33,466 bases of DNA from an uncultured bacterium (lineage in GTDB: Bacteria > Patescibacteriota > Minisyncoccia > Phycocordibacterales > UBA9973), in the NCBI GenBank assembly GCA_903862375.1, contig CAIOXR010000054.1, positions 1-33,466 on the forward strand. Reading direction: 5' to 3'. Positions 1 to 33,466 of this stretch are shown here, in pieces. The notes below the pieces were generated by a model. The model saw only the letters and a program-made list of their open reading frames with translations. It ran no database searches and had not been told where the DNA came from. Numbering within the stretch: position 1 is the first letter of the stretch; each line of letters opens with the position of its first letter. The position numbers were made by a program, and so were the translations under genes.

Positions 1-141
1 GTTGAGCCAAGTGAGCAGGTAGCCAAAGTCAATAAGAATAAGAATGGAGACTATACTTGTTGATACTGCGATTGTATAGATATAGAAGACTATACTTGTT
101 ATTGTCCAATGTGTGGTAGAAAGTTATCACGAGTAGACTAA
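1..141 (+). CDS. partial CDS (3' end), Cys-rich zinc-ribbon-like C-terminus
   Basis: Frame 1 is open from the window edge to TAA 139-141 with one in-frame TGA (61-63). It reads ...NKNGDYTC(G)YCDCIDIEDYTCYCPMCGRKLSRVD. The 12-nt unit gactatacttgt occurs twice. Confidence 0.4.
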
Positions 142-198
142 TCCCGAAAATAAACCAATAGGTTGGCAGTATAATAACATCTCTCAATCACATTACAA

Positions 199-363
199 TG
201 AGCTACTTCCATCAAGGATGTGATAAAAACTGCAATAGGTATCGGTTGAAATGTAGCATCGATACTGGTATAAGTCTGGACGAGATATGCGATTCAGTTC
301 GTGATGTCAAATCACTTAGCAAGGACAACAAACATCCGTGAGAGGTTAATACAGATTGGTAGG
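199..363 (+). CDS. hypothetical small Cys-rich protein (uncertain)
   Basis: ATG 199 to TAG 361-363 with one in-frame TGA: MSYFHQGCDKNCNRYRLKCSIDTG... It lacks the usual upstream U-rich motif and is GC-richer than its neighbours, so it may instead be part of a structured RNA. Confidence 0.25.
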
Positions 364-444
364 TATAAAGATAGATATAGTTAGCGATAAAATTAGGTTC
401 GACTCCTGCACGGTGCCGTTGCTATATCTATCTCTCTACTTACC
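358..444 (+). other. long imperfect stem-loop with a T-arm-like hairpin in its loop
   Basis: Arm 358-380 (ggtaggtataaagatagatatag) pairs with 422-444 (ctatatctatctctctacttacc), about 21 of 23 bp. The 41-nt loop contains tagg-TTCGACT-cctg and is followed by a T-rich tract. Confidence 0.45.
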
Positions 445-482
445 AACCAATACAATCCTTTTATCTTTTTATTATTTATGCT

Positions 483-707
483 ATGAACGAATTAACTTAT
501 GGAATGAAAGCAGTCGGATTAACATTTAATCCATCTGGAGACGAGAAAGTAACAGAAGTAAAAACACTTTGTGCTAAAGTTATTGATTTGCTTAATGAAT
601 TAAGAGCAGACCAAAGAAACGAACAGAGTAGATTATTGTCTGTCGCTATTACAGAAATGCAGACAGCTCAAATGTGGGCAGTAAAATGAATTACTTGGAA
701 AGATTAG
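483..707 (+). CDS. small helical protein, possible Acb2/Tad-type nucleotide sponge
   Basis: Track ORF 483..689 ends at a TGA. Read-through adds G-ITWKD up to TAG 705-707. Motifs GLTFNPSGD...LLNELRA...SVAITEMQTAQMWAVK(G)IT match my recollection of a common small phage helical-hairpin family. The U-rich motif lies upstream (458-471). Confidence 0.7.
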
Positions 708-714
708 TTATTCT

Positions 715-897
715 CCCCGCTAGTCCGTAAAGACTGGTGGGTGATAGACTAGGTAGTATTGGTTTCTATGCACTGATACAAGCCTATAGATTGGATAGAC
801 TATTTCGGATAGAGTCTCCCAAAAACACTATGTGAAAATCATAGAGGCATCCGACATAGGTATACGATTTTGTCCTGCTAGAGGATGTATACCTATG
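715..897 (+). ncRNA. structured non-coding region (candidate phage ncRNA or 3' UTR)
   Basis: No ORF in any code. Hairpins: 716-725/732-741 (10 bp including GU pairs), and 855-865/887-897 (perfect 11 bp) with inner stem 872-876/882-886. GATAGACTA occurs at 743-751 and 794-802. GC-richer than the surroundings. Confidence 0.3.
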
Positions 898-931
898 GAA
901 ATATAAAAAAACAAGGTAATAATCGCTAATT

Positions 932-968
932 AAAAAAACCCTCGCTATCACTAGCGGGGGCTATTTTA
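932..968 (-). terminator. rho-independent terminator ending the leftward late operon (possibly bidirectional)
   Basis: Stem ccctcgcta (939-947) / tagcggggg (952-960) with loop tcac. On the minus strand it is followed by TTTTTTT (complement of 932-938), and on the plus strand by ctatttta. Confidence 0.75.
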
Positions 969-980
969 TGTTTACTCTTA

Positions 981-1826
981 TTATTTAAGTATTTGATTAC
1001 AATCAATTATTTTTGCTAACATAATTTGCTTAGTTTCATCTATATGACTCTGGAATATACTATCATTGCTTAGTGTTTTAGATGCTGTACATAAATCTGA
1101 GATTTGCTGACAGTTAGCTCTTAGTTGTGTTGTCCTTTTTATCTTGTCTTTATCGATAGTTTCTGGTGTTTTGATAAAGAAATAAACATTACAATTATAT
1201 ACTGAGTTTTGAAATAATGCTGGTAACTGGTCTATCTTATATCTGTTATATGTATTACCAGAAGATGAATCATTTACATACATAACTCATGTATCTAACT
1301 CTTGTAATGTACAATGTCAGTAAGTAGTAGCACCAAATTTAGATCCGTTTAATTCATTATCCACCTGATAATCTTTATTATAAGCATAATTACCCTGATA
1401 ACTAAATATAGCTGGATATCATTTTTTTAATAGATCAGAATATTCTGGACTACTTCGTAATGTCTTAAAAGATATCAAATCTATCCCATTACGCTCTTTG
1501 ATAAACTTTCTTACTATATCTATCGCTCAACTAACTCATCGTGGTGTTCATGGTATATAATGTACTGTACTGGTAGCATAATCTATTAAATCTAGATAAT
1601 CTTGTGTTGTAGGTTGTATTCACGCTATATAACACGCTTGTCTATAACTATTAACAAACGTACATCATGATTTAGTTTTACTGTAAGCATACTGATTAAA
1701 TTGTGGGATTATTCATTTAGGTATATGTGGTAAACTATCTATATCTATCCCTAGATCACCAAACAAGAAATTATTTAATTTATCTGGTTCATTTATCACT
1801 CCATTAGTTTGCATAAATACTTTCAT
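981..1826 (-). CDS. Cys-peptidase-like protein (papain/C39/CHAP-type), endolysin candidate
   Basis: 281 aa. ATG 1826 to TAA 981 with no TAA/TAG in frame and several in-frame TGA; track ORF 981..1283 is its 3' part. ...KSGCTFVNSYRQACY... and ...TTYGHCTLQELD... look like a Cys/His catalytic pair. It is the last gene of the late block. Confidence 0.75.
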
Positions 1827-1835
1827 AGTTTTAAA

Positions 1836-1994
1836 TTAAGATTTAAAATCTAACCTTGCTTGTATACTCTCACGCTCATTTATCAGTTGTTTGAGTGTTT
1901 GTACGTCCAATCAAGACTGTAGTTTAAGCTCATCAATCTTACGATTAACTTCTTCTAGTTCTGTTTTTAAATTTTGTTTCTGAAATTCTAACAT
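1836..1994 (-). CDS. small coiled-coil protein
   Basis: 52 aa, MLEFQKQNLKTELEEVNRKIDELKLQSGLDVQTLKQL... The ATG overlaps the upstream stop (ACATGTTAG). An alternative in-frame ATG exists at 2036. Confidence 0.5.
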
Positions 1995-2711: not shown

Positions 2712-3665
2712 TTAAAGTTTAATAAATTTCATCCCTATTTTAGTTCAACCTGTTTTATCTATCTCTACCTCTATTATCCAACCTCCTATAGTATTATCTA
2801 GGTTGAATCTTTTAGCAAGTAGATTCTCTTTTAAGAACGCTCAAGGTAAAAAACTATGTATCTTACGATAAAATACATATAGTGCGGTATGTCGGTGACC
2901 CGCAGCAAACACATTTGGTTGGTTCTTAGGATCTATATTCTCTAATAACTTCTGTATTTTATATGATTTTGCGTAACTCATCCCTCAACCACCATGATGT
3001 AGATTGATATCAACTCCATTAAGTTTAATCCTAGCATCATAGAACCCTAGATTGATTAAATCTTTACGTACTTCACTTATAGCTCTACTTATATCTCAAC
3101 CAGTCTTTTTTAGAAATGACTCATCATGATTTCCGCCAATAAAGTAAGTATCTAATCATATATTAGGATAACTTTTGATTATATCTTCTAGTTGTGAATC
3201 AAAACCTATTTTGTCTTGTTCATAAATCTGACCTGTATATACACTATCTCAGTCCACTATATCTCATCAGTGCATAAAACATTCTACTCAATCAGATTTC
3301 GCTATATCATAAAATTCTCAAAGTTCGTTTCTAGCACACTCTTTATTACCTAGATGAGTATCGCTAACTAATCAGAACTTTAAATATCATGGTTCTCATA
3401 TAACTTTTTCTATATTTTGTTTAGAATCTAATTTTAATCTATAAAGTATCTCTTTAAGTTGTTCTGGAGTATATTGTTGTATCAAATCTAATTTCTTTTT
3501 CTCTTGACTAGAAAAAACCTCTTTTATCTCCTCCTTTTTGTATTGATGTCTTGCTACACTAGTCTTTCCTACACCTAAGATTTTTGCTATCTCTCTCTGA
3601 CTTTTTCACTCAGATGATAACTGCTTTATCTCGTTAATCTTTCATTGTTCAAGAGGTTTTTGCAT
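2712..3665 (-). CDS. HTH domain fused to a calcineurin-like metallophosphoesterase
   Basis: 317 aa, frame checked. N-terminal HTH is SQREIAKILGVGKTSVARH. Metallophosphoesterase motifs are LVSDTHLG, MHGGDIVDG (3249-3275; three of its Gly are TGA), GGNHD, HHGG and GHRH. Confidence 0.9.
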
Positions 3666-8122: not shown

Positions 8123-10069
8123 TTATTGGTTAGAAGTTAAAAACTTTGTTGCTGCTAATGATGTTCATCTATTAATTGCATTTTTAGGTAAATATTTAAT
8201 TGCTTTCTCTATTACTTTAGATGAAATTCATATTATATTTGATAATTCTCATATTAGTCTAGGACTAGAAGCGATAAGTCAAAGTCGCATAGTTGGATGT
8301 AATAAACCTAATATTGCTAATCATCCTGCCTCGATCCTACCCATAAATCATTTAGGTAATAATGGATTAAGTGCCTGACCAGCTATCTGTCATTTAAAAT
8401 TCTTTGTTCAATATTTCTGTAATTCATCAGCAACACTTTGGGAATATTCCTTATTATCGTTTAATAGATTCATTATTTTAGTAATAGCCGTCTGTTTATT
8501 TGTTTTACTGACATTTCAATCTATAGACAGTGCTTGTTTTATTGATTGCTCTGTATCTTTGAATTTAGAATATTGTGTCATCATATCTGCATATTCTGGT
8601 ACGTTTTTTTTTATTTTATTACCTATCTTATTAGAAGCATCTAATATAATTGTATCACTAAGTGTATTTTCAGTTCATCATTTGTAAAGATTTGATACCC
8701 TTTGTTTTAATGTGTCGGCTCATATAGCACTTGTGTCGTTCCGTTTTCTTATCTCATCTACTAAATTTCTTATCTGGTCTTGATGTGTTTTCTGTGATAT
8801 GGTAGATTTAGAAAAGTCTAATGACTTTCAATTTAGAATATAATTTTCATTAGCATCTGTCATTATCTTTATTCATTTATTTTCTAGATTGGATAATATT
8901 TCTTGTCAAGCGGCTGGTAGGTCTATTTGTGCTGTAGATTGCTCCAATTTTTTAGCTCATTTTCCATATATGAGATTTTTCTGAGACTTCATATTCTCTA
9001 CCATATTCTGAGCATTTTCCAATGTAGATTCTATTGGTGTTCATCCTCTAAGAGCTTTCGTAAATTCTTTATTCCCAGCATTTTCTATTGCAGTTTCAAT
9101 AGTTTTTCAAGATGTGCCAGTTAATTTACCAACCACTCATTTTACTATTTTTCATCATAATTTTGTTACTAGCGGTAATGCTTGTCAAAGAGCAAGATTA
9201 AATATACCGAATGTTAGTGCCTCTTCTGGTGTAGTTAATTTATGCTCTGCTATAGCATCATATTTAGACGCATCTAACGTTCATTGCGCAATTGCTTTAG
9301 TTACTGCTTGAGTAACTTTCTGTATAATAGGTCTAGCCTCCTCATTATTAGATAATCGTTTAGATACCTTAGCAACAGTTGAACCTTCTTCTACTAGTTT
9401 ATCTATCATAGGTATTTTAGTTAATCATTCTACTACTCAAACTTCAGTTGGCGTGAACATCTGTATAACATCTGTTGCTGTTTTAGCAGCGTTCCAACCT
9501 ACTGTATTGGGATTACCTCAACTTATTGCCTGTGGTTTATACTGCATAGTCGTATCATTTTCTCAGAATAGTTTATTAGCTCATTTCTCCATAATCTGCA
9601 TAGGAGCAGACAATGAATCCAATATTCAACCTAATATATTGTGTCCCGCTGTTGGTTTTGCCGCTCATTTAGCTTGTTCTTCCTTTATTGAGTCAAATGC
9701 TCGTTGCTTAAAGTCATCCGATAGCTCTGGATATAATCTTGATATTTTAGTTAGATTATCATTGTATTTAGAATCTATAGCGAAATCCATAAGTGGCTTC
9801 CAGTCACTAACAGAAAGTTCTGGGAATTTATTTGTAAGTGTTGGTCAAGATTCATTTTTCATTACTAAATTTACCAGTGCTTGTTTCATAACTGGCTCTT
9901 TACTATTTATAGAGGAAACCCTACCAATAGTAACATTAGTATTTGGTATCTTTGTATTATAAATACCAGTCTTTACTGCAGCAGGCATAGCACTTACTTG
10001 TGTTCATTGTACCCCAGTTACTGCTGGTTTGGTAATTCAAGTTATACCAGTATTAAATCCTAAATCCAT
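8123..10069 (-). CDS. large internal-virion/ejection-type protein (function by position only)
   Basis: 648 aa. ATG 10069 to TAA 8123, every codon checked, many in-frame TGA. C-terminal hydrophobic segment is GGLAILGLLHPTMRLGLIASSP. The plus-strand track ORFs here are antisense artefacts. Confidence 0.85.
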
Positions 10070-10090
10070 TTTTAATATATAAGAAATAAA

Positions 10091-12601
10091 TTATCTTCAA
10101 CTGACTCATCACATAGTACTACCAGCATTTATCTGTGAATTTGTAGTATTTTGTGTTGTAGTAGGTTTATTAATACCAGTTAGTGTATAATATTCATCTG
10201 GGTATGTCATTCAAGGATTAGATTTCATAACCTGTGTTATAACATCTTTTCTTGTAACTTTTTTATTACCCGTAACTCCATTCTCTGCAGAAGCTAATAA
10301 TGCTTCCAATACAGTAAATTTAGCAGTAGCAACATTCTTAGTGTCTGTCACTTTAGGAATATCATTATCTATAGACATATTTATCTCAGTCTGTGTTATT
10401 CTAAATCCAGCCCCTTGTCATCATACCAATGCTTGTAGTGCGGCTATAGCCGAGTTTCTCCAAGTTCAATAACTAGCAATAGCAGAACTTCTAGCATCAG
10501 CTCAAGGTAATTTTTGTGATTTTAGATTCTGTACTTTAGTATATAAATCTCGTGCAGTATTAGGTAGATAACTTTGTATAGCACTTTGTACATTAGCTAA
10601 ATCTTCCATTACTGTAGATATATTGTTTAATTTACTTGCCTGTGTCTTATCTAATATCGGTAATATACCAGCCTTATTTGCTAATTTAGATATTTTAGTT
10701 TTATCTGTTGGGGTCATTCAAGAGAGGTCAATCCATTGAGTGCCTGAGTAACTTTCTTTGATACTATTTGCATAGTCATTCATAAATTGCTGAGATTCTA
10801 TATCTCAAGCGGTTGATTGATATGTTTGTCGTTGTTTCTGTACTTCTGCTAATGGTATACCATTATTAGCACCTAATTGAGCTAGTTGGGCTACGGTGGG
10901 ATTTTTTAATGTATCAAATTGTGAATATAGTGATGTATTTCAATCAGATGGTGTAGTGTTTCATCCACCAAATAATTCTTGCCATAATCAAGGGCTTTCC
11001 TTTTTTATTTGTGCTGATTGGACTAATGATTTTTCATCTGCAGTTAATTGGTTAATTTTCTTTCACATTATATCACTAGATAATCAAACATCTCAAGTAC
11101 CTCGTGATTTAAGATATGTGCTTACTGTAGCATTACCTCGTCTTTGTGTCATAACTATATCATAAGCCTTCATTCAATCCTCTATAGTAGCAAATTTAGC
11201 AAAACTACCTCAATCTTGTGCATTAGTTCAATTAGTTACAACTATTCAAGCATCTTTCCATAATTGTTGTAGAGCAGGACTCGCAGCAGATAATTTAATC
11301 CCAGTAGGATTGTTATTCTTAAATGATGCTTCATTAGGATATTGCGAAGCTAATCCACTTAAATCTCATTTACTTACTGATGTAGAAGTTGATGTGGTAT
11401 CTCATATTCATTGTGTAGTTATATCTCGTACTCAAGTAGTAGGATTCCATTGTGTAATAATTGCTCAAGTTCACAATGGGTTCTGAGATACATTTGGCTG
11501 CATAAGTTCTGCCTGTTGCATCTGTAACGTAGCCATATCCTTTTGCATACCTCGATTAGCGTTAAATAATGCAAGTTGGTCTGTGAACTGTTGTTGCTGC
11601 ATTGTATAAGCATCTTGTTTAGCTTTAATCTGTCAATTAAGTGCTGTAAGTTCTCTTACTTTAGTATTTCTATCTATACTTAAGTCTGCTGTTTGGTCTC
11701 TTACTATTGCAGATAATTGTCCTTTAGATAATGAGCCATAATGAGCTTCAGCATCTTTCTGGATTTGTTCTATCTGTTTATCTATGTCATCTATAGCTAG
11801 CGACACTGTATTAGCTTGTTCTGATACCTTAGATAATTCTGGGTCTGTTGTAGGAATGGTTGGTAATGCAGAAGTAGAACTTGTTGTTCCACCATCAAAT
11901 CCTGCCTGTGTAGCATAAGTAGCAAGAGTATTTTTATTGTCTTCTATATTCTGTTGTTCAGCTCTTTTAGTCATAACTTCGTTATATCTTGCAACATCGT
12001 TTACCTTCATATAATCTAGGTCTGCATCAGTATAGGTTCAGTTTACTAACCCCTTAGCGATGTCATCACTAGGTAACGCTCCTATCCCTCTTTCATAACT
12101 CTTTTGATTATAGAATTTATCTAGTATCCCTTTTTGTGCTGCCGTTCTTTCTCAATAATGATATGTGGTATCAAAAGTTCATCTATCTTGAAATTGTGTA
12201 TTATCTTGAGCATATTGAGTAGTTAAGTTATTCTGTATCTCTAATAATCTTTTTTCGCTATCATCTGTATAACTAGATTCAGTCTTAACTGGTGTTACTA
12301 CTGGTTCTGTTACTGGTTCTACTTTATCATTTACTGGCTCTACTTTAGTAGTTGTGCCATTTCATAATTTATTAGTACCCTTATATCAAGGTTGTAACGC
12401 CATAGGGTCAGTCATACTAGTTTTTGTTGGATTAACTGGTGTTACTGGTGCTGTAGCATACTGCATATTATATTTAGCTGGATCAAAAGTAGGATTCTTT
12501 TTTACGAACGCCTGTTGACCTGCTAAATCCATCTTACTCCAAGCCTCTGTAGCTTTAGTTGGTACTACTGTAGATTCTGGTGTTACTACTGGTTCTGCCA
12601 T
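10091..12601 (-). CDS. large internal-virion/ejection-type protein
   Basis: 836 aa. It joins same-frame track ORFs 12386..12601, 11633..12010 and 10502..10717 through TGA codons, checked codon by codon. The N-terminus is Pro/Val/Thr-rich. A central segment reads ...NNNPTGIKLSAASPALQQLWKDAG...FAKFATIEDGMKAY... Confidence 0.9.
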
Positions 12602-12621
12602 TTAGATTATTTAAGGATAAA

Positions 12622-13128
12622 TTATGATAGTTTGAATGCTTTAAGTTTTGTTGTAACATTTAGTGGTCATCAACTAGATTGATATACATCAACTGTAATA
12701 TAATCATTTTTATTTAGGTTGAATATTTCTGTAATATCTATTAACATAGTTACTGATGCTATTGGTAACACATATTTTATTTCTAATGGACTTCAATTCA
12801 AGTTTATTACAATAAATCTTATACCTGTTGCTGTAGCATCTGCTGCAAAAAATCAAATAACATTTAATTGATATGTTCAGTCTGTTGGTATCAAAACTTG
12901 TCAGGTTGTTTTTGCTCGATTATATTTACCAGTTACTGTATATACATATCAAGGTATAGTTGTTAGACTTGATGTTGCTATTGCTCTTGTACTATCTATT
13001 GCTATTACGCTATCTAAATATCTGTTATATGTCTGTGTTCTAGCGTTTATAGGTCTCTGTGTATATCAAGATTGTGTTGTTACTGGTTGTAATATAATAT
13101 CCTTTGGTGGTTCTGATTGGATTCCCAT
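12622..13128 (-). CDS. small beta-rich virion protein (C1q/TNF-like guess)
   Basis: 168 aa, MGIQSEPPKDIILQPVTTQSGYTQRP...TYQLNVIGFFAADATATGIRFIVINLNGSPLE...LNKNDYITVDVYQSS. Alternative in-frame ATGs at 13158 and 13161. Confidence 0.7.
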
Positions 13129-13147
13129 TAGGAATATAAGTAATAGA

Positions 13148-19309: not shown

Positions 19310-20518
19310 TTAGGCAACAACTCTAACTCTGATAGCTCTGTTTGCACCTTCTGCGAATGTCTTGATACCATATAATGTGTAGCAAAGATAGTCGTATCCA
19401 GTTTTAAGAGGTTCTTTGTTCTGTTGTACTGTAACGTCTGCTTGGATAACCAAATCAGTACATCAATATTGACCGAATCGGCAATCTGCAACTTGAGTAG
19501 ACCAAGTTCCATAAGATGTGCTTGCAGGTGTGTAAGAACAAGTTATGTTACCATAAGATGTGATGGTAAGAACGTGTGCAGCATAACTTGCTGATACTCC
19601 AGCATTTTTAAGAATATCTCTATTAGCTTGTGTGATGTCGATATAAGTATCTACTCCAGGTGTTCCTGTACCGTTGATAGCAGTAACCAAAGTAGCCATA
19701 CATAAATCTTCTGAGTTTTGGATAGAGAAGTGTCCTACTCCTACTGCAGTGTTATCAGCATCAGCTGTGAACGCTACACCAGCGATAGTAACAATATCTG
19801 TATCAACTAGGATAGCAGAAGTAGTGAACACGTTTGTATGTTTAACTGAATTAGATACAAATACGTTCATATTACCCCAAGTACCCATATAACCCATACC
19901 TTTAAGTGTTCCTTGTAACGCTGCATCTGCTTGGTTGAAACCATTAGCAAGATTAGTCTGTTGCATAAGAGCTTTAAGATTAGGTGTTACAACGAAGAAC
20001 CAAGGTGTAGTATCTTCGATGTTTGCTGTGTTAGCTTTAGCTTCAACAGTAGTGAAAAGTTTGAATACGTTAGATACAGATACTGTAACTGGGTTTCCAG
20101 ATGTTCCTCCGAAATCACCATCAGTTACTGTGTAAGTTGAGTTAGCTACTTCAGCCATGAATGCACCATCAATGTTTTTCTTCAAAGCATATCCGATACG
20201 ATCAATCATTTTATTAGCTACATCATATTTGTTCTGGATCTTATCAATGTTGTCGATATATACTGTAGCTTCTTTTGTTTGATCAACAGTAAGATATTCG
20301 TCAGTAATAGTTACATCTTGAGCAGTTACTGCTGTTCCTTTAGTATAAGAGTTTACTGAAACATCTGAGTGGTACGGTCTATGTACTTTAATACCGTTTG
20401 TTAAAGTTGCTCTTTCTTCCATATTAGAAATCTCTCTTGCTACTAATTTAGCTTTAAGAAGATTCTGCATCCTTGCTGATCGATACTCTGGAGATGCGGC
20501 GGTAAGTGAATTTGCCAT
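19310..20518 (-). CDS. major capsid protein (HK97-fold type)
   Basis: 402 aa. Track ORF 19463..20518 (351 aa) ends at the only TGA in the gene. Read-through adds 51 codons (the TGA glycine plus 50 aa, ...TLYGIKTFAEGANRAIRVRVVA) up to TAA 19310. It lies after a scaffold-like gene and before a terminator. Confidence 0.9.
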
Positions 20519-21595: not shown

Positions 21596-23518
21596 TTACA
21601 TTTGTTGGTCTCATCTGTTTGGTGGTGTTGCTGGTTTTTGCATTGCCTGACTTGTTGCTATATTTTGTGTGCTATTAGCTATCTCATTAAATGCTGTAGG
21701 AGCTACTGGTGCTTGTTGTGGTACTTTTATCAATGCCTCTTGTAACGCACCCAATACTACTTCTTTAGCCTTGGTGTTGTCTGCCTTTTGAAGGTATATC
21801 CAGAAAGTTGGTAGATATTCTGGTGGATTACTCATAATAGATTTAGGTATCTCGTTTAAGTTAACTATACTTAGGTAGTCCATCGCTTTACGTTCGTTAT
21901 TAGTTAATGGTACTAATACATTTACTTCGTTAGGTGTTTTACCGTTACATCTTAATAACATCCTTTTAGCTATAAGTTTACTTACTTTCGGAGTATCTGG
22001 ATCTTGTAAGAATAATGCTAGATATTTATCTCGGAATACTCTTTGTTTCTCGTTTTGACCTTCTACTTCACCTTTTGTACCAATAATGATGAACGGAATT
22101 TGACTAGTGAAGAAATCATCCTTCCCGATGGTCAAAGACTTAAATTCAAAGTTCGAGTTGATCGTGAGGTTTTTCTTGTCAGCTGAACTGAAATTCTCCT
22201 GATAACCCTTCCGTCGTTCATATCGGAACATCTTGTCGCCTCGAGAGTTAATTTTGTTGTTGAGCAGACCTATAATGTTCGAATTTGCCTGAGCTATTTG
22301 GCTCTCAGTAGCCGTAACATCTCTAGTAGCGATTACTCATTGCTGTTGATTATCTAAGTTTACATCAAATCTAGCTTCAGAATCGATAGCATTCATCATA
22401 CTAAATGTATCTGTTTTTATTTGACTTCTTGGAATTTCTATTCCCACATTACCTAGAGGCTCTTGTGTATCTACAAATATGTTCCTTCATTGTGTTGTGG
22501 GCTTTAATATATCGTTTTTATTTTTAATAAGTCTTGAATTCCAGATAAAATCTCATCCAAGTGCTTCTTTTTTAGCTTTAATTATATTTAGGTTAAATAG
22601 TATTGTTTTTGCTATCTGTTTATCATCTAATCTATCACATACTGATTCTCCCATAGCATCGTTTCTTCTAGGTTTCCAGTAGTTAAGTATTATAGGAAAA
22701 CTTATAAGATTAGAGTTTTCTTTTTCTTCTTTTAATACTGGTTTAATTTCAGAAACTCTTAATATCTTTGCTCTATCTGCTGTAGTTGTTACACAATACT
22801 TTTTACCATTAAAATTAGTAAAGTGATGATAAATATCTAAACTGAAGTTATGTTTAAGTCATTCTACTGCTGTAGGCATAACATAATTATACGCCATAGC
22901 GTAAGTAGACCGATTAAGTTTTGTTTCTGAACTGAATAAACTAGCTACTATCTCATCCAGTACCTTCTTATCGTATGTTAGGTCTGCTGCTAACTCTAAT
23001 ATAGTAGTAGTCAAATCAAATCAATGATATCTGTAGTTTTTACCATCAAATCTTCCTGTTTGGCTAGGAATAGGATCAGGAATCCAACTTAATGGGTTAA
23101 TTACAGCAAAAAGTGGCACTTTTCTAGTATCATCCCATCCATATCTATGTCTAATACTTACTCCAAAGAAATACCTATCTTGTTCTTTTTGGTAATATAG
23201 TTGCTGATAATCGTCTTCGTTATTATCAAATTCAGCCATAAAATTAAGATTATCAGCCTTCTCTTGACCTATCCATCCATCTTTAGGAGCGAAATTAACA
23301 GTTAATCCATCTGTGTACGAAGTAGCTATCATTGTATCTATTGCGTTAGCTATCATATTAATATTTATCTTATCAACACCTTTTTTCTGCTTATTCCGTC
23401 TTATAACTCTTTGTCTGTACTGGATTCTCTTAGGGTTGATGTAGTTCCACCCCTCTGAATATTCTCTAACTATCTGGGCGATTAATAACGCCTTATCTGC
23501 TTCTGAAAGTTCTACCAT
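21596..23518 (-). CDS. portal protein
   Basis: 640 aa. Joins same-frame track ORFs 23021..23518 and 21611..22231 through 6 TGA, every codon checked. It is the first large gene after TerL. Confidence 0.85.
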
Positions 23519-23628: not shown

Positions 23629-25020
23629 TTAATATAAAAATCAACTATAATCTACCTCAAATACTCATTCTAACGAACTATTAGTAGCTTCTAGATCTCT
23701 TACCACCCATCGCATCCTCATCATTATAGCATCAGCGAAGTCTGAACTCCTATTTATCCTTTTTCTTAATAACTCTTTAGATTCTATCATTATCTTACCT
23801 TCTTTATCAGTATTTTTAACATAAATATTCTCTAATTCTCTCATTAGGTTCTCTTTAGTACTTCATTCGTTTTCTATCCTTATTAATCTTTTTTCCATAA
23901 GTTCCTTTAATTTGAAATAGCATTGAGTTTTCATATTACCGAAGTTTTTGATAACAAAACCAGTCTTTTCTGAGTTATTCTTAAACGGTGTAGCTGAATT
24001 AACGAAATTAACACACCCCCTTAACATATCTGCTACCCCTCCTCCTACTCAATCACTATCTATCAAGATATTAGCTCTCCTTATCTCAAATTCTGTCTCT
24101 AACTCCTTTATCCTTTGTGCTACCTCTGTAGTAGTGTTCTGTGCATACGTGATAATCTTAAAACATTTAAGTCATTTCCATAGTGCTATAACGGTTTTAT
24201 CGTCTCAAAGTCTAGCTACATCACAAGTTAAATACGCAGTTGGGTCTGATTCTATGTTATTCCTAAATAAATCATATATCTCGTCATATCTAAACACTTT
24301 ACCTTCATCATCACTCCAATCAAAGTTACCATAAAGCAACCTCTGTCTAGTTATCTCGTCAGAGTTCTGTAGCTGTACTATATATTCAGGGTCGATATAC
24401 TTGTTATCAGTAGCTAAAGCTGGTATAAATTGTCTTATTTCTGATATTTTCTTCTCTTTATATGGTATCCAGAACCTTTCCTTTACGTGTCATTGGTCAG
24501 GGTTAAATGTCTCTAGTAATTTAGGGATAATACCATATTCTCTGTTCTTTTGTCTTGAAATACGTGTCTTTAGGATAGTAATAGCCTGTAAATCTACCTC
24601 GTTTGATTCGTCTATAAACCCTCAAGTCAACTCTAACGACCCAAATCTAGTGTATAATGGGTCTGATGGCTGCTGAGCACAATCTAATAGTAGAATCTCT
24701 GATTTATTAGGGAACTTAATAATATTATACTTCTTATCTAACTTTCACATAAGCTCTAACGGTATCTGATAATCCTCTCAGAACTTATAATATGAGTTTA
24801 ATGTCGTTTTCATTAAGTTAGAAAGCTCTCTACGTCACATAAAGTAACGCACTCAAGGATATTTATTAACCATCATCCATAACCAAGCTACTCAGATATA
24901 TGATTTACCTCATCATGCCCCTCATCCATACCCTACCTCTCTAGTTACGTTATCCATAAGATACTGCATAGCCATCGCTTGTTTCTCTGATGCTTTAAAC
25001 TCGAGTTTGAATTCTTGCAT
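23629..25020 (-). CDS. terL: terminase large subunit
   Basis: 463 aa, every codon checked. P-loop is VGYGGGAGGGKSY (24901-24927; three of its Gly are TGA). Walker B-like segment is LELTGGFIDESNEV. Plus-strand track ORFs 23948..24334 and 24401..24676 are antisense. Confidence 0.93.
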
Positions 25021-28646: not shown

Positions 28647-28749
28647 AATGTAAATATTAAAATTATAATATTCTGATTTATTGTTTATGATTTGATTTCA
28701 TATCATCAGATTAACTTGATTTTCTTATTTTATTATATATAAGCCAATT

Positions 28750-28830: not shown

Positions 28831-28872
28831 ACTTCCTGTCTAAGTATTATGGCTTTTATTTTATCTGAATAA

Positions 28873-29613
28873 ATGGAAGGTCGAATAAAAATACATAGGA
28901 AAATCAATAAACGATGACGGTATACAGATGCTAATACTTTCCGTGTATTTTTTCATCTGCTTACAATAGTATCATATTGAGAACAAAATTGGAGATGACA
29001 AAAAACAATACCATGACAATGTACAGTATGAAGAAAATATCTAGCTCACGAATTACATCTATCAGAGCAACAAGTAAGACGTGCAATAATCAACCTACAA
29101 ACAACCAACGAAATAACAGTCCAGACAACCAACAGATTTTCTTTGATAACTATATGCAAATGGGAAGAATACCAATCAGAAGAAATAAAACAACCAACAA
29201 AACAACCAACAAAAAGTTTAGAATTCAACCAACAAACAACCACTACTAAAGAAATACAAGAAGAAAAGAAAGAAATAAATATAGATATACCAAAATTTCT
29301 AAAACAAACAATTAAAGAATTTATAGAGATGAGAAATAAAATAAAAAAACCATTAACAAATAAAGCATTAAATATGCTATTAAACAATTTGAATAAGCTA
29401 GGCAAGAATGACCCCGAAAAAATTATGATACTTGAACAATCTATATTTCATTGCCGACAAGGTATATTTCCCCTTAAAGATGAATATAAACTTGATAACC
29501 CTAGAATATTTAGAAAATATATGGAAGAGTGAAAATCTGAATATCTTAAAGAAATGCTTGGTATGGAAAAATTTACTGAATTAAAAGATATTTATCTTAT
29601 TACCCCTAAATAA
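28873..29613 (+). CDS. replication initiator-like protein with N-terminal winged HTH
   Basis: 246 aa, frame checked; contains track ORF 29143..29532. ...FRVFFHLLTIVSYGEQNWRGQKTIPGQCTVGRKYLAHELHLSEQQVRRAIINLQTTNEITV... is the usual phage replication/DnaD-type wHTH pattern. Confidence 0.8.
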
Positions 29614-30416
29614 TGGAAATAAATTATAAACAGACACCATTTACTCGAGGACTTAAAAAGATAGACAAGGCACTAGGAAAACCAGATTATCGTGAACTTA
29701 TAATATTTTTCTGATATTATTCATCTTGAAAGACTGAATTTACATATTTTATGGCTAGGAAAAATATAAAGAATTGACAGAAGGTATGTTATATGTCACT
29801 AGAACTTCCTGAATATGATATGAAATTAAGAATAGCAAGAAAAATGGCTTGAATTAAAAAATATGATTTCCAGACTTGAAATTATAATGAAACACAAAAA
29901 CAGATTATGGAAACTAATTTTAGAGAAATAGATAACCTGACGGATTTATATATTGTAAAACCAAAAACAAATGAAATATCAGAAATAGAAAATATAATAA
30001 GACAATATTATGATAAATGATGTAGATTATTTATTATAGATAATTTAGATAAAATAGGGTGAAATGAAATAGATAATATAAGATACCAACAAATATCATC
30101 AACACTTCAAGACTTAAAAAACGAAAACAATATATGTATATTTCTTATACATCACGCTAAAAAACCATGAAGTAAAGACAGACAATATGAACCAGCTGGT
30201 ATATCTTGAAGTAGATGAAGTCAGAAAATTATAGATAATGCTACACAATCAATAGAGATATGGAGAGATTTAGACCCAGAACAACTTGATGAAAAACACA
30301 AAGCAAAAGTATATCTTTATCAATATAAAGATACAATGGAAGGTAATAATAATGTAATAGATATTTATTTTAATAAATGAAATTATGAGGAAGAATACGA
30401 AAAACCAATCTTTTAA
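29613..30416 (+). CDS. DnaB C-terminal-like (RecA-fold) replicative helicase/ATPase
   Basis: 267 aa, frame checked. Walker A is GYYSSGKT (29712-29735), and both of its glycines are TGA. Walker B is LFIIDNLDKIG. Also present: ...HHAKKPGS... and AGISGSRGSQKIIDNA. The start overlaps the upstream stop (TAATG). Confidence 0.88.
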
Positions 30417-30735
30417 CTTCAAAGACGTAATAGTTAAATATGATGAGCTAGATAAGCGTAAGAAACTTATATACGCTTATTATCTGACTACTAATCATAA
30501 ATATAATAAAGAGATAAACGATATAATTATAGACTTCTGATATACTAGGAACAGACTGGTAAGGAACTATCCTACCTTAAACCGACGAGATGAGTTTGAA
30601 TATGAACGACTAGGTATATATGTGGAAAACAAACACCTAGAGGAATTGAAAGCAGAAATAAATAGACGAGATAAAATCAGAGAATGACATAATGCTTTTA
30701 TTTCTTGAACGCTATTAAATAATGAAGAAAACTAA
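30385..30735 (+). CDS. hypothetical protein
   Basis: 116 aa, MRKNTKNQSFNFKDVIVKYDELDKRKKLIYAYYLTTNHKYN... Overlaps the helicase 3' end by 32 nt. Frame verified. Confidence 0.6.
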
Positions 30736-31147
30736 GAAACCAAAAAAACCTAGCAGAAGTAAATTAGTCAGAAAATTAGACTCTATATTCAGTCAGTACA
30801 TCAGATTAAAGTATTCTGACAGTAAATGAAATTGTACTTGCTATACCTGCTGACAGAAAGCTCATTGGAAAGAGATGCAAAACTGACATTTCTTATCAAG
30901 GTCTAATTATAAATATCGTTGGTCTGAGGATAATTGTAGAGTTCAAGACTACCGTTGCAACGTAATTTATAAATGAAATTACAAAATATATACCATTAAA
31001 ATGATAGAAGAATACGGAAAAGAGAATATAGAATATATAATAAACGATAAAAGTCTAATAAAAATAAAGACATACGAAATAGAAGAAATGATAGTTAAGT
31101 ACACAGAACTTGTAAAAAAATTAGAAACTAAATTACAGAAATCATAA
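30722..31147 (+). CDS. ninG: NinG-like (lambda NinG/Rap family) protein
   Basis: 141 aa. ...LDSIFSQYIRLKYSDSKGNCTCYTCGQKAHWKEMQNGHFLSRSNYKYRWSEDNCRVQDYRCNVIYKGNY... The Gly of GHF and of GN are TGA. Frame verified. Confidence 0.8.
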
Positions 31148-31215
31148 AAATCTCTTGATTTATTAATTGAATTGATTATACGTACAGTATCGGTTTTATA
31201 TCTTTATTAAAGAAT

Positions 31216-31479
31216 ATGTTGGAGATAACAGATAAGTTCAAAGCATTCCTCAAGTGATATGGAGTGAAATCTATGAAAGAATATTATGGACTAACACAGA
31301 AAGAGAAATCTAATCTAGCGAAAGAATATCTTAGAGTGATAAACAAGAGGGTATATCCTATGTGAGAAAATGGAGTAGGTAAGATATTACAATCTATTGT
31401 TGATGAAATGCCTACGTATTGAGACCCTGATAATGATTATGATAGAGAAAGAGATAATTCAATATGATATGATTTTTAA
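31216..31479 (+). CDS. hypothetical protein
   Basis: 87 aa, MLEITDKFKAFLKGYGVKSMKEYYGLTQKEKSNLAKEYLR... Motif at 31193-31210. Confidence 0.6.
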
Positions 31480-31482
31480 TTG

Positions 31483-31707
31483 ATGACTAACAAGAAACAG
31501 ATGAGAAATAATCGAAATGATAGAGATGAACAATATAAAGTAATGAATAGTGATATGTCTGATGATGAAAAATTAACACTTTTGAAAAGAATGTATAATG
31601 CTGTATGATTATATCGAAAAGTATTTGAATTTTATGAGAAATTAATGGAAATGAAGAAATATTCATCTCATAGTAAAAAAGAAGTGTTAAAATCGTGAGT
31701 GGATTAG
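31483..31707 (+). CDS. hypothetical protein
   Basis: 74 aa, MTNKKQMRNNRNDRDEQYKVMNSDMSDDEKLTLLKRMYNAVGLYRKVFEF... Confidence 0.55.
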
Positions 31708-31754
31708 AATATAGCCAATATTTCAATGTATTTTTACTCTTTAAATATTTTAAA

Positions 31755-32162
31755 ATGTATAAAACATCAAAAATTTCTACCATTCAATTTATCAAAGAAA
31801 GAACCAATCAATTTTGAACAACTTATTATTTTGATATTACATTTGAAAACGGAGACAGTTGAAGCATCTGAAAAAAAAGGATGGATGCGTTATCAGTAGG
31901 GATGACATTAAACTATAATCTTATTATGGAGAAATGATTTCCTCATATCAAAGAGGTATCAGATTATGATTTGAATAAATGAGGATTTGCTACTACACCA
32001 GTTAATCAATCTACACCTGTTTCAACACCTAGTAGAAGTAGCTCACAAAATGCTTCGTTTGCATTGAGCTATGCAAAAGATTTAGTCAATGGTAAATCTA
32101 TAGAGTTCAAAGATTTATTACCTACTGCTGATGTTTTATTGGAACGATTAAACAGTAAATAG
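31755..32162 (+). CDS. hypothetical protein
   Basis: 135 aa, MYKTSKISTIQFIKERTNQFGTTYYFDITFENGDSGSIGKKRMDALSVG... Motif at 31728-31746. Minus-strand track ORF 31487..31783 is antisense. Confidence 0.7.
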
Positions 32163-32212
32163 TTTTATAAACGATATATATTTCATATCGTAATAAGGAA
32201 GTTTATTCGGTC

Positions 32213-32228
32213 TTGAGATATATCTCAA
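32213..32228. promoter_or_regulatory. perfect 16-bp palindrome TTGAGATATATCTCAA (operator-like)
   Basis: Lies in the 244-nt gap between genes. The half-site TTGAGATAT recurs at 32394-32402, just before ATG 32407. Confidence 0.4.
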
Positions 32229-32406
32229 TCCCTCTTAAACATTTATTTACTTTTGTTTCCATCAAAATCAAGCTTATTGATAACCATCTATATCTTTATT
32301 TGGCTTATAAACCAATGTTAGAGAAAAAATACTACTTTACACAAATAAAAAATGATTTATACTTTTTATGGTCAGATATTAAAATTTTATTTTTTGAGAT
32401 ATTCCT

Positions 32407-32841
32407 ATGGAAAAACTGATTAAAGAAATAGAAGATTTAATAACCAATATCAATGCTGATGCTACACGTAAAAAGCTATCAGATTTATGTATCAAACTTA
32501 TCGAGCTTTCTCATCTCTATTGAGATGCTAAGATGTTTACTATCCGTAGTAAAGCGATGCTAGAGATGGCTATGGTAGAAAAGAAAGATGATATTAAAAC
32601 ACAATTTGAAAAAATACAAGACTGATTGGAGGAAATAAAAAAAGAAAATAAAACACGAAAGAGAGCTAAATTGACAGTTGATGAATTAGATACACAAGTT
32701 AGGTTGACTCAAGAGATAAAAGATTTTATGAACGCCAAACTCGCTAACGAAGAAATATCGGTAAGATTAGAACCATTATTAAAATCATATTACGAATTTA
32801 TAACAAATATAAGATTTTTAGATAATCAGAAACCGCTTTAA
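32407..32841 (+). CDS. coiled-coil protein
   Basis: 144 aa. ATG 32407, through two TGA, joins track ORF 32626..32841. TTTTAT lies 16 nt upstream. Confidence 0.75.
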
Positions 32842-32857
32842 TCATTAACCTAAGAAT

Positions 32858-33079
32858 ATGAATAATAAACTATTAAAGTTTTTAACTAATAACTGGAGAA
32901 GATTTAGTTCAACTCAACGACATGATATGACTGGATATTCTTGTGTATTATTAAAAAAAATGATTAGAGATAAAAATATAAGTAAGAAACAAGAAGAATT
33001 TATATGTACTAATCTTATTGAGTGGATAGATTCACTTCAAAGCGATATTATTGATATCTGTAATAAAAAAAATGGATAA
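32858..33079 (+). CDS. hypothetical protein
   Basis: Track ORF of 73 aa with a genuine TAA stop and no TGA. Confidence 0.7.
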   Translation: MNNKLLKFLTNNWRRFSSTQRHDMTGYSCVLLKKMIRDKNISKKQEEFICTNLIEWIDSLQSDIIDICNKKNG

Positions 33080-33281
33080 ACAAATGGATTTAGAGAGCTG
33101 AAATACGATAGTTATGACGTTTGATGAATATGTTGAATGGTTATGATATAAAAATATAAAAGAGCTATCATTATCATATCAACTAGAGATATCAGAAGAG
33201 TTCTTTTATATGAATAGATTTTTATTCACTAAATCAGATAATAATGCTTTTCTGAACAACTACCTTAAACACTATAACTAA
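33072..33281 (+). CDS. hypothetical protein
   Basis: 69 aa, MDKQMDLESGNTIVMTFDEYVEWLGYKNIKELSLSYQLEISEEFFYMNRF... Its ATG overlaps the upstream stop (ATGGATAA). Confidence 0.55.
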
Positions 33282-33333
33282 GACAAAGATAACTAACTGA
33301 ATATTATTCACGTTAAGGTCAGCTGATTGACGT

Positions 33334-33466
33334 ATGAGAAAACAATGAATATACCATAATGGGATATTTACTACTACTACAAGGAACGAACGTAATCTAT
33401 TTGAGAAATTTAATGGGTTCTGATTATCACTTGAGGTATTACACGAATTACAGAAAGATGATAAGA
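33334..33466 (+). CDS. partial CDS (5' end) running off the window
   Basis: MRKQGIYHNGIFTTTTRNERNLFEKFNGFGLSLEVLHELQKDDK..., open to the window edge. Confidence 0.5.

What the first reader, a model, noticed from the sequence alone, without database searches (positions are those of the whole stretch)
1..33466. Genome-wide TGA-to-glycine recoding (translation table 25): phage of an SR1/Gracilibacteria-type host
Under the standard code only a handful of ORFs exceed 150 aa in a 33-kb stretch with almost no obvious non-coding space. Reading through TGA gives about 50 contiguous genes separated by 0-60 nt. In-frame TGA codons sit exactly on invariant glycines: both G of the helicase Walker A GYYSSGKT (29712-29735), three G of the TerL P-loop YGGGAGGGKS (24901-24927), the GD..DG metallophosphoesterase motif (3249-3275), and the GHF and GN of the NinG-like protein. 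Tryptophan (code 4) would destroy each of these motifs. Code 25 is known only from Absconditabacteria/SR1 and Gracilibacteria, whose phages are poorly described.
Basis: partly seen in the sequence, partly recalled or inferred. Interest (0 to 1): 0.85.

Follow-up and report, generated by a model that had tools for sequence, protein, structure and literature searches.

The report
Phage written in the SR1 code

Summary
With table 11 the window has 6 ORFs of at least 150 aa. With TGA read as sense it resolves into 49 strand-coherent genes at 89% coding density, and 47 of them contain in-frame TGA.

TGA is glycine, not tryptophan. In TerL, the TGA columns face Gly in 61% of cells from 80 standard-code homologues and Trp in 2% (log-odds +18.8 bits for Gly). 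Profile scores drop or vanish when Trp is substituted. In 27 recoded relatives, TGA interchanges with GGN.

New here: CGA and CGG behave as tryptophan. Of 28 alignable CGA/CGG columns, 21 face TGG in relatives and one faces an Arg codon. Standard-code homologues have W/F/Y at these sites. Profile scores rise 3 to 12 bits with Trp. CGA and CGG supply 69 of 136 Trp codons.

UGA=Gly with CGA/CGG=Trp is the code Shulgina & Eddy (2021) predicted for Absconditabacteria. The reconstructed ~40-kb genome has no tRNA, and early genes are the most recoded, so the phage must rely on a host that reads this code natively.

Code-25 phages are already published (Borges 2021; Liu 2023). I found no report of phages using CGA/CGG=Trp. 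A direct host link (CRISPR spacer or prophage) could not be obtained.

The parts
1..33466 (.). About 84% of a roughly 40-kb circular or circularly permuted tailed-phage genome written in a variant code (TGA=Gly, CGA/CGG=Trp, stops TAA/TAG only). It holds 49 genes, 361 in-frame TGA, 58 CGA and 11 CGG.
   Evidence: The window is 100% identical to parts of contigs L118 (from a 39,986-bp contig) and L122, which join the window's end to its start.
23629..25020 (-). Terminase large subunit with 16 TGA. The P-loop YGxGAxxGKS at 24901-24930 contains three TGA.
   Evidence: Pfam Terminase_6N/6C hits appear only or better with Gly. Against 80 standard-code homologues the TGA columns are 61% Gly and 2% Trp, with log-odds of +18.8 bits for Gly.
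21596..23518 (-). Portal protein (SU10-like) with 6 TGA and 7 CGA/CGG. The cluster W..W..WW at 22211-22243 is encoded by CGA, CGA, CGA and CGG.
   Evidence: The SU10_portal hit appears only with Gly. Six of the seven CGA/CGG columns face mainly TGG in 25 relatives; the seventh, residue 435, faces CGA 13 and TGG 12. Database relatives show W/R and G/W mixtures at these columns.
19310..20518 (-). Major capsid protein. Only 1 of its 28 Gly codons is TGA. CGA codons sit at 20480-20482 (residue 13) and 19478-19480 (residue 347).
   Evidence: phrog_267 scores 83.8 bits with Trp and 75.0 with Arg. Residue 13 faces W in both standard-code outgroups. Both CGA codons face TGG in relatives.
15764..16612 (-). 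Glycine-rich virion protein. 65 of its 94 Gly codons are TGA.
   Evidence: phrog_2295 scores 129 bits (E 4.6e-37) with Gly and gives no hit with Trp. Pfam Gly_rich_2 scores 58 bits.
15027..15746 (-). SU10-type head-tail adaptor.
   Evidence: Pfam SU10_adaptor scores 33.9 bits against a cut-off of 27.
8123..15034 (-). Four tail or virion genes (8123-10069, 10091-12601, 12622-13161, 13148-15034) with 105 TGA and 21 CGA/CGG in total. Functions are unassigned.
   Evidence: In the gene at 13148-15034, 7 of 10 CGA codons face TGG in relative L084.
16635..17474 (-). Tail-fibre-like protein with 14 TGA. The antisense + ORF at 16654-17493 is spurious.
   Evidence: The codon-model score is 174.6 for the minus ORF and 51.3 for the plus ORF. 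phrog_9017 (tail fiber) matches. The same gene is called in contig L116.
25334..25804 (-). Terminase small subunit.
   Evidence: phrog_51. A weak Terminase_2 hit is recorded for relatives.
2712..3665 (-). HTH plus metallophosphoesterase protein with 15 TGA. The motif MHxxDIVDx lies at 3249-3275.
   Evidence: Pfam Metallophos scores 39.9 bits with Gly and 25.4 with Trp. phrog_7339 and phrog_1649 also match.
28873..29613 (+). DnaD-like helicase loader or replisome organiser. Its N-terminus is MEG[CGA]IKIHRKINK[CGA][TGA][CGG]Y (CGA 28882-28884, CGA 28912-28914, TGA 28915-28917, CGG 28918-28920).
   Evidence: phrog_2514 scores 79.5 bits (Gly, Trp), 67.3 (Gly, Arg) and 68.9 (Trp, Trp). In 11 standard-code phage homologues the three CGA/CGG sites are W/F/Y, W in 5 of 11, and W in 5 of 11 with the rest hydrophobic. 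None is R. TGA at residue 48 faces G in 11 of 11.
29613..30416 (+). DnaB-like helicase with 11 TGA. The Walker A motif xYYSSxKT lies at 29712-29735.
   Evidence: Pfam DnaB_C scores 67.7 bits with Gly and 44.5 with Trp. phrog_239 scores 107.5 bits.
30722..31147 (+). NinG/Rap-like endonuclease with 4 TGA.
   Evidence: phrog_5034 scores 85.9 bits with Gly and 70.4 with Trp; phrog_171 scores 78.2 and 54.7.
483..707 (+). Acb2/Tad1-hairpin family protein, a candidate anti-defence sponge.
   Evidence: Pfam PF24729 scores 54.5 bits against a cut-off of 27. The family is also on record for the same gene in other contigs.

Best explanation
The window is most of the genome of a lytic-type tailed phage with SU10-like portal and adaptor proteins and a genome of about 40 kb. 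Its genes are written in the code predicted for Absconditabacteria (SR1): UGA is glycine, CGA and CGG are tryptophan, and only UAA and UAG terminate.

The phage carries no tRNA, and no release-factor or tRNA-synthetase gene was recognised. Its early genes use the reassigned codons as heavily as its late genes, or more so. Translation therefore has to be done from the first minute of infection by a host that natively decodes UGA with a tRNA-Gly(UCA), lacks RF2, and decodes CGA/CGG with Trp-accepting tRNAs.

In a standard-code cell, 47 of 49 genes would be truncated and 69 tryptophans would be replaced by arginine, so the code also acts as a host-range lock.

**Shown:** the meaning of the three codons (by comparison with homologues), the gene map, and the absence of tRNA genes.

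**Inferred:** the host identity, the host tRNA and release-factor mechanism, and the lytic lifestyle (no integrase was recognised).
For: **TGA = Gly.**
- TerL TGA columns face Gly in 61% and Trp in 2% of cells across 80 standard-code loci. This matches ordinary GGN columns (51% Gly).
- Log-odds are +18.8 bits for Gly; the next best residue, Ser, scores -56.
- Gly beats Trp in every profile test: Metallophos 39.9 vs 25.4 bits, DnaB_C 67.7 vs 44.5, Terminase_6N 19 vs none, NinG 85.9 vs 70.4, glycine-rich protein 129 vs none.
- In 27 recoded relatives the window's TGA faces TGA (335 cells) or GGN (312) out of 906. The window's GGN faces TGA in 395 cells. The window's TGG never faces TGA.

**CGA/CGG = Trp.**
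- Window CGA faces TGG in 118 of 204 cells and AGA in 1. Window CGG faces TGG in 107 of 121.
- 21 of 28 CGA/CGG columns have Trp as the main alternative; 1 has Arg.
- A check of all 64 codons shows that only TGA, CGA and CGG deviate from the standard code.
- Standard-code evidence agrees. The helicase loader gains 12.2 bits, the capsid protein 8.8 and the helicase 3.0 with Trp instead of Arg. Eleven cultured-phage homologues have W/F/Y at the three N-terminal CGA/CGG sites and never R. Capsid residue 13 is W in both standard-code outgroups.
- Composition becomes normal with the full code: Gly 7.4% and Trp 1.4%, against 3.9% and 0.7% otherwise.

**Dependence on the host.**
- No tRNA is found in the window, in the rest of the genome (L118, L122), or in 27 relatives apart from one tRNA-Tyr. 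Rfam gives no hits.
- Early genes encode 63% of Gly with TGA and 66% of Trp with CGA/CGG; late genes 45% and 47%.

**Match to the host code.** Shulgina & Eddy (PMC8629427) predict CGA and CGG = Trp together with UGA = Gly in Absconditabacteria, with low GC (0.26-0.38) and AGA as the main Arg codon. The window has GC 0.325 and 215 AGA among 289 true Arg codons.
Against: - No direct host link was obtained. Scans of 185,579 GTDB species genomes with the capsid alignment and with TerL found no related prophage or binned contig. No CRISPR spacer search was possible.
- The host code itself is a computational prediction that has not been confirmed by proteomics.
- The nearest standard-code TerL relatives are phages of Bacteroidota (Cellulophaga, Flavobacterium, Bacteroides; 36-38% identity). 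This shows ancestry of the packaging gene, not the host.
- Seven of the 28 CGA/CGG columns do not face Trp, and a few face Y, I, P or A. Ambiguous decoding cannot be excluded.
- Most small genes are unannotated, so a novel decoding factor cannot be formally excluded.
Confidence: 0.8

Rival explanations
1. Plain table 25: TGA is Gly, but CGA/CGG remain arginine, and the CGA/CGG-to-TGG correspondences are real Arg/Trp substitutions or alignment noise.
For: Seven of the 28 CGA/CGG columns do not face Trp. One capsid site (residue 347) faces R in outgroup L106. The metallophosphoesterase and helicase CGA sites are not diagnostic.
Against: - True Arg codons (AGA, AGG, CGT) interchange with each other and with Lys, and essentially never with CGA/CGG. 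Only 1 of 124 Arg columns does so.
- 225 CGA/CGG-to-TGG cells across 21 columns arose in alignments that penalised R against W.
- Standard-code profiles and 11 cultured-phage homologues prefer Trp or an aromatic residue.
- Without CGA/CGG as Trp, tryptophan content would be 0.7%.
Confidence: 0.05
2. The host is not Absconditabacteria. It is a Gracilibacteria lineage, or a still unsampled lineage, that shares UGA=Gly and has also reassigned CGA/CGG.
For: Shulgina & Eddy report that some Gracilibacteria are predicted to read CGG as Trp. No direct host evidence was obtained here.
Against: CGA=Trp, which accounts for 58 codons here, was predicted only for Absconditabacteria. Published code-25 phages are mostly assigned to Absconditabacteria: 44 of 50 predicted Absconditabacteria phages larger than 20 kb are clearly recoded, against 4 of 38 for Gracilibacteria.
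Confidence: 0.12
3. A recoded phage of a standard-code host such as Bacteroidota, which switches the code during infection in the way Lak or crAss-like phages do.
For: TerL is nearest to Bacteroidota phage terminases. Recoded phages of standard-code hosts are common in gut samples.
Against: - The complete genome has no suppressor tRNA, and no release-factor or tRNA-synthetase gene was recognised.
- 47 of 49 genes are recoded, and early genes are the most recoded. This is the opposite of the late-gene pattern described for such phages.
- A sense-codon change (CGA/CGG to Trp) cannot be imposed by a suppressor while the host's Arg tRNAs are still present.
Confidence: 0.03
4. Code 4: TGA is tryptophan, implying a Mycoplasma- or Spiroplasma-type host. 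This is how public protein databases currently translate these contigs.
For: The database proteins for this window and its relatives carry W at TGA positions.
Against: - Log-odds strongly favour Gly: no residue other than Gly scores above -56 bits.
- All profile scores fall with Trp, and the glycine-rich protein loses a 129-bit hit.
- Walker A and the P-loop would read WYYSSWKT and YGWGAWWGKS.
- Trp content would be about 4%.
Confidence: 0.01

Closest known systems
[quoted passage not shown] 2023, PMC10746230)
   Same: TGA is read as Gly. About 90% or more of genes carry in-frame TGA. There is no need for a phage suppressor tRNA. Gene calls collapse under code 11.
   Different: Those papers do not mention CGA/CGG (zero occurrences in Liu et al.). 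Here half of all Trp codons are CGA/CGG.
Absconditabacteria genetic code predicted by Codetta (Shulgina & Eddy 2021, PMC8629427)
   Same: The same three reassignments (UGA=Gly, CGA=Trp, CGG=Trp), low GC, and AGA as the dominant Arg codon.
   Different: In the bacteria, CGA stays below 37 and CGG below 7 per 10,000 aligned Pfam-domain codons in all but one species. In this phage they are about 58 and 11 per 10,000 codons of the whole gene set and rival TGG (about 67). The prediction was made for cells, not phages.
Phages predicted to read AGG as Met, from the same samples as AGG-reassigned RFN20 Bacilli (Shulgina & Eddy 2021)
   Same: A phage mirrors a host sense-codon reassignment and carries no tRNA for it.
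   Different: A different codon, amino acid and host lineage. Here a stop reassignment and a sense reassignment are combined.
TAG- or TGA-recoded Lak, crAss-like and other gut phages of standard-code hosts (codes 15 and 4)
   Same: Stop codons are used as sense codons in phage genes.
   Different: Those phages often carry suppressor tRNAs, release factors or synthetases, and concentrate recoding in late genes. This phage has none of these, and its early genes are the most recoded.
SU10-like podophage structural module, and TerL of Cellulophaga phage phi10:1 and Flavobacterium phage 11b
   Same: Pfam SU10_adaptor matches above threshold and SU10_portal matches weakly. TerL is 36-38% identical to these Bacteroidota phage terminases.
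   Different: Only TerL is shared with those phages. Most structural proteins have no PHROG or Pfam match.

Membership tests
NCBI translation table 25 (SR1/Gracilibacteria code) | UGA encodes glycine | tested here: met
NCBI translation table 25 (SR1/Gracilibacteria code) | UAA and UAG remain the only stop codons | tested here: met
   All 49 genes end in TAA (36) or TAG (13). Reading TAG or TAA as sense does not give a coherent gene map.
NCBI translation table 25 (SR1/Gracilibacteria code) | All 61 standard sense codons keep their meaning | tested here: not met
   CGA and CGG behave as Trp. Table 25 would mistranslate 69 codons.
Absconditabacteria code as predicted by Codetta (UGA=Gly, CGA=Trp, CGG=Trp) | CGA encodes tryptophan | tested here: met
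   22 informative columns with mean Trp share 0.66. Standard-code homologues have W or an aromatic residue at the helicase-loader residues 4 and 14 and at capsid residue 13.
Absconditabacteria code as predicted by Codetta (UGA=Gly, CGA=Trp, CGG=Trp) | CGG encodes tryptophan | tested here: met
   6 informative columns with mean Trp share 0.97; 107 of 121 cells face TGG. There are few codons (11), so this rests on a small sample.
Absconditabacteria code as predicted by Codetta (UGA=Gly, CGA=Trp, CGG=Trp) | Low GC, with AGA as the main arginine codon and CGN depleted | tested here: met
   GC is 0.325. Arg codons: AGA 215, AGG 44, CGT 24, CGC 6.
Phage of an Absconditabacteria host | Direct link: CRISPR spacer match, prophage in a host genome, or physical linkage | tested here: inconclusive
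   Scans of GTDB genome contigs with the capsid alignment and with TerL found no relative. A spacer search was not possible with these tools.
Phage of an Absconditabacteria host | Uses the host's code without carrying its own decoding genes | tested here: met
   No tRNA in the window or in the rest of the genome. No gene outside the structural module exceeds 317 aa, and none matches a release factor or a synthetase.
NCBI translation table 4 (UGA = Trp) | UGA encodes tryptophan | tested here: not met
Code-switching phages of standard-code hosts (Lak, crAss-like) | A phage-encoded suppressor tRNA or release factor, with recoding enriched in late genes | tested here: not met
   No tRNA. Early genes have the highest share of reassigned codons.
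Caudoviricetes (tailed dsDNA phage) | Terminase large subunit, portal, HK97-type major capsid protein and head-tail adaptor | tested here: met
   TerL; weak SU10-type portal hit; major head protein phrog_267 at 83.8 bits; SU10_adaptor. The capsid fold itself was not modelled.

The most novel reading that the evidence does not exclude
This phage and its clade are the first viruses shown to use the CGA/CGG-to-Trp sense-codon reassignment on top of UGA-to-Gly. The clade has hundreds of database representatives; one relative's contig record is labelled cattle.

Because CGA/CGG supply about half of all tryptophans here, against 10-27% in relatives and far less in the bacteria, the clade gives the strongest comparative evidence yet that the Codetta prediction for Absconditabacteria is real. 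It also offers abundant virion proteins in which the prediction can be tested directly by mass spectrometry.

The heavy use of CGA/CGG could also be an adaptive code lock, or could track a host lineage at an advanced stage of reassignment.
Probability: 0.5. Interest if true: 0.7.

Novelty: new variant of a known kind. Interest (0 to 1): 0.55.

Why it matters
- **Independent support for a predicted code.** The sense-codon reassignment in Absconditabacteria was predicted from rare codons only. Here it rests on many codons and many alignment columns, and it can be tested by proteomics on abundant phage proteins.
- **Host assignment from the code alone.** A three-codon fingerprint can assign uncultured phages to a CPR host lineage without CRISPR data.
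- **Mistranslation in public resources.** Databases currently translate this clade with code 4, which puts Trp at every TGA-encoded glycine and Arg at every CGA/CGG-encoded tryptophan. Table 25 would still leave the second error. This corrupts homology searches, structure prediction and virome annotation for these phages.
- **Biology of CPR hosts.** The phage carries an Acb2/Tad1-type gene, which hints that its host uses cyclic-nucleotide defence systems.

Tried and rejected
- Host link through GTDB genomes: a capsid-alignment scan and a TerL scan both returned no relative.
- tRNA and ncRNA: ARAGORN on the window, on the rest of the genome and on 29 related loci found no tRNA(UCA) or tRNA(UCG/CCG). 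The Rfam gathering scan gave zero hits.
- Terminal repeats: none were found within the window. Circularity was inferred from overlapping contigs in other samples instead.
I used TGA-free ORFs instead.
- Sample accessions were not found in the paper library, so the environment of the window's own samples is not established. Only one relative's record is labelled 'Cattle'.

**Limits of annotation.**
- Most virion proteins have no PHROG or Pfam hit.
- Apart from TerL, only one small early gene (31755-32162; 3 of the 80 loci) is shared with the 80 loci found through TerL.

**Ideas rejected.**
- Code 4, TAG or TAA as sense, and a plus-strand gene at 16654-17493.
- I first took relatives L083 and L084 for standard-code phages because their database gene calls are long. 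ORF statistics showed they are TGA-recoded and had been called with an alternative table.

Full report
**1. The observation**

The window is AT-rich (GC 32.5%). Under table 11 it has only 6 ORFs of at least 150 aa, two of them on the wrong strand.

The share of the window covered by stop-to-stop ORFs of at least 150 aa is 0.18 under table 11 and 0.90 with TGA read as sense. The controls give 0.24 (TAG as sense) and 0.57 (TAA as sense, which in AT-rich DNA mostly adds overlapping off-frame ORFs).

With TGA as sense the sequence resolves into a strand-coherent map:
- Late and structural genes lie on the minus strand at about 980-26300. Early and replication genes lie on the plus strand at about 27200-33300.
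- My curated set has 49 genes and 88.9% coding density. All stops are TAA (36) or TAG (13), and 47 genes carry in-frame TGA.
- The same gene lengths appear in independent database gene calls on identical contigs.

Two small corrections apply. The TerL P-loop is 24901-24930, and nine intergenic gaps exceed 100 nt, the largest being 887 nt at 26309-27195.

**2. What TGA means**

*Standard-code references.*
- TerL has 80 homologues in IMG/VR at 36-43% identity. These loci have normal table-11 ORF coverage (median 0.66).
- With TGA entered as X, so that the alignment is not biased, the 14 alignable TGA columns face Gly in 61% of cells and Trp in 2%. Ordinary GGN columns face Gly in 51%, and TGG columns face W/Y/F.
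- A Codetta-style log-odds over those columns gives +18.8 bits for Gly. The next best residue, Ser, scores -56.

*Profile scores, Gly against Trp.*

| Family | Gly (bits) | Trp (bits) |
|---|---|---|
| Metallophos | 39.9 | 25.4 |
| DnaB_C | 67.7 | 44.5 |
| Terminase_6N | 19 | no hit |
| SU10_portal | 18.2 | no hit |
| NinG (phrog_5034) | 85.9 | 70.4 |
| Glycine-rich protein, 65 TGA (phrog_2295) | 129 | no hit |

*Recoded relatives.*
- The capsid and portal proteins have hundreds of database relatives.
- I fetched 27 loci with capsid identity of 55-82%. All are TGA-recoded: table-11 coverage is 0.07-0.33, against 0.41-1.15 (median about 0.9) with TGA as sense.
- In codon-level alignments the window's TGA faces TGA (335 cells) or GGN (312) out of 906. 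The window's GGN faces TGA in 395 cells. The window's TGG never faces TGA.

TGA is therefore a synonymous alternative to GGN. Code 4 is excluded.

**3.

The codon tables showed window 'Arg' facing Trp far too often. Split by codon:
- CGA faces TGG in 118 of 204 cells and AGA in 1.
- CGG faces TGG in 107 of 121 cells.
- CGT faces CGT, AGG or AGA in 131 of 156 cells.

By column, 21 of the 28 alignable CGA/CGG codons have Trp as the main alternative and one has Arg. Conversely, only 1 of 124 AGA/AGG/CGY columns has CGA/CGG as its main alternative.

A check of all 64 codons shows that only TGA (to Gly), CGA (to Trp, 0.66) and CGG (to Trp, 0.97) deviate. The other flags are single-codon amino acids or codons with one or two columns. 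These alignments were made with R in the query, so they were biased against this result.

Standard-code evidence agrees:
- PHROG scores rise when CGA/CGG are read as Trp: helicase loader 67.3 to 79.5 bits, capsid protein 75.0 to 83.8, helicase 104.5 to 107.5.
- The loader's N-terminus MEG[CGA]IKIHRKINK[CGA][TGA][CGG]Y aligns with the GWIxLHRKILEWEWY motif of 11 phages of Staphylococcus, Vibrio, Klebsiella, Cellulophaga, Pantoea, Pseudomonas, Bacteroides and others. At the three CGA/CGG sites these have W/F/Y, W in 5 of 11, and W in 5 of 11 with the rest hydrophobic. None has R.
- Capsid residue 13 is W in both standard-code outgroups.

With the full code, Gly is 7.4% and Trp 1.4% of residues. 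Counting only GGN as Gly and TGG as Trp gives 3.9% and 0.7%. CGA (58) and CGG (11) together equal TGG (67) as Trp codons.

**4. The genome and its dependence on a host**

- The window is 100% identical to parts of contigs from other samples. L118 comes from a 39,986-bp contig; L122, L116 and L123 overlap other parts.
- L122 extends past the window's right end, overlaps L118, and L118 runs into the window's left end. The genome is therefore about 40 kb and circular or circularly permuted, and the window is about 84% of it.
- No tRNA gene is present in the window, the remaining 6.7 kb or the related loci, apart from one tRNA-Tyr and one tRNA-Met in two loci. Rfam gives nothing.
- No gene outside the structural module is longer than 317 aa, and none matches a release factor or a tRNA synthetase.
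- Early genes use the reassigned codons more than late genes: TGA is 63% against 45% of Gly codons, and CGA/CGG are 66% against 47% of Trp codons.

This is the opposite of the late-gene recoding described for code-switching phages of standard-code hosts. It means the code has to be readable at the very start of infection, by the host's own tRNAs and release factors.

**5. Comparison with what is known**

- Code-25 phages are already described. Borges et al. found a TerL clade in which TGA aligns with Gly. Some members had Absconditabacteria as predicted host, and about 90% of genes carried in-frame TGA.
- Liu et al. found that 44 of 50 predicted Absconditabacteria phages larger than 20 kb are clearly code 25.
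- Neither account mentions CGA or CGG: Liu et al. has zero occurrences in the full text, and the Borges passages retrieved do not discuss them. A full-text search found no paper on phages that use CGA/CGG as Trp.
- Shulgina & Eddy predicted CGA and CGG = Trp in Absconditabacteria in addition to UGA = Gly. They noted that the codons are rare in the bacteria, that the prediction needs confirmation, and that only CGG may extend to some Gracilibacteria.

The phage matches this three-codon code. It also matches the associated low GC and the dominance of AGA among Arg codons. It therefore fails strict membership of table 25, because one defining feature (all sense codons standard) is not met. It fits the Absconditabacteria variant.

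The host assignment remains an inference from the code. Two scans of GTDB genomes for related capsid or TerL genes found nothing, and CRISPR spacers could not be searched.

**6. Verdict**

- Its interpretation (genome-wide TGA=Gly, phage of a code-25 host) is supported, but incomplete on the code and overstated on novelty.
- The TGA part is a new member of a published kind.
- The CGA/CGG=Trp usage, shared by a large clade of SU10-like phages of about 40 kb and unusually frequent in this genome, is to my knowledge unreported for viruses. It gives independent, proteomics-testable support for a predicted bacterial sense-codon reassignment.
- Practical consequence: public protein databases translate this clade with code 4, so they have Trp at every TGA-encoded glycine and Arg at every CGA/CGG-encoded tryptophan.

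Noticed in passing
Window-wide. Examples: 28882-28884, 28912-28914, 28918-28920, 20480-20482, 22211-22243.: CGA and CGG codons (69 in total) behave as tryptophan, not arginine.
   Followed up: yes
483-707 (+): A small gene matches the Pfam Acb2/Tad1 hairpin domain (54.5 bits). That family includes phage sponges for cyclic-nucleotide defence signals. It suggests the CPR host has CBASS- or Thoeris-like defence.
   Followed up: partly
19310-20518 (-), and the capsid genes of L081-L108: The major capsid gene almost avoids TGA. In the window 1 of 28 Gly codons is TGA, and in 27 relatives the share is 0.05. TerL has 0.52 and the portal 0.33. Heterogeneity among window genes gives chi-square p of about 1e-15. 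One possible reason is selection for translation efficiency or accuracy in the most expressed gene.
   Followed up: partly
4971-6860 (-): This 629-aa tail-fibre-like gene has internal direct repeats of about 354 and 618 nt and higher local GC. Its TGA use is low (8 of 72 Gly codons) and its CGA/CGG use is low (1, against 14 TGG). It may have been acquired recently from a standard-code source.
   Followed up: no
Window compared with relatives L081-L108: CGA/CGG make up 51% of Trp codons in this genome but only 10-27% in the same genes of relatives. In the portal it is 7 of 14 here against 33 of 327 there. This lineage seems to have accumulated TGG-to-CGG-to-CGA changes.
   Followed up: partly
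P0121 and other database proteins of the clade: The public protein collection translates these contigs with a TGA=Trp table and standard Arg. Relatives therefore show artificial W/G and R/W polymorphism at conserved Gly and Trp columns.
   Followed up: yes
Window ends, with L118 13945-20216 and L122 4870-10567: The window is about 84% of a roughly 40-kb genome that closes into a circle through contigs from other samples. Identical sequence occurs in several independent ENA and Logan assemblies. The missing 6.7 kb holds about 15 small genes, including an HNH_3 gene.
   Followed up: partly
27167-27201 and 27991-28025: A 35-nt direct repeat (89% identical) ends in the ATG of two early genes (27196 and 28020). 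It is probably a repeated early promoter or leader element.
   Followed up: no
26317-26339 and 26518-26540: A 23-nt repeat lies in the 887-nt divergent intergenic region. Its reverse complement contains GGAGGAGGGG. One copy sits just upstream of the minus-strand gene that starts at 26308, so it is likely a strong ribosome-binding site. The second copy may mark an unannotated small gene.
   Followed up: no
L106 and L109: Two IMG/VR contigs with capsid identity of 42% and 31% use the standard stop set. They are the closest standard-code relatives found for the capsid gene and mark the edge of the recoded clade.
   Followed up: partly
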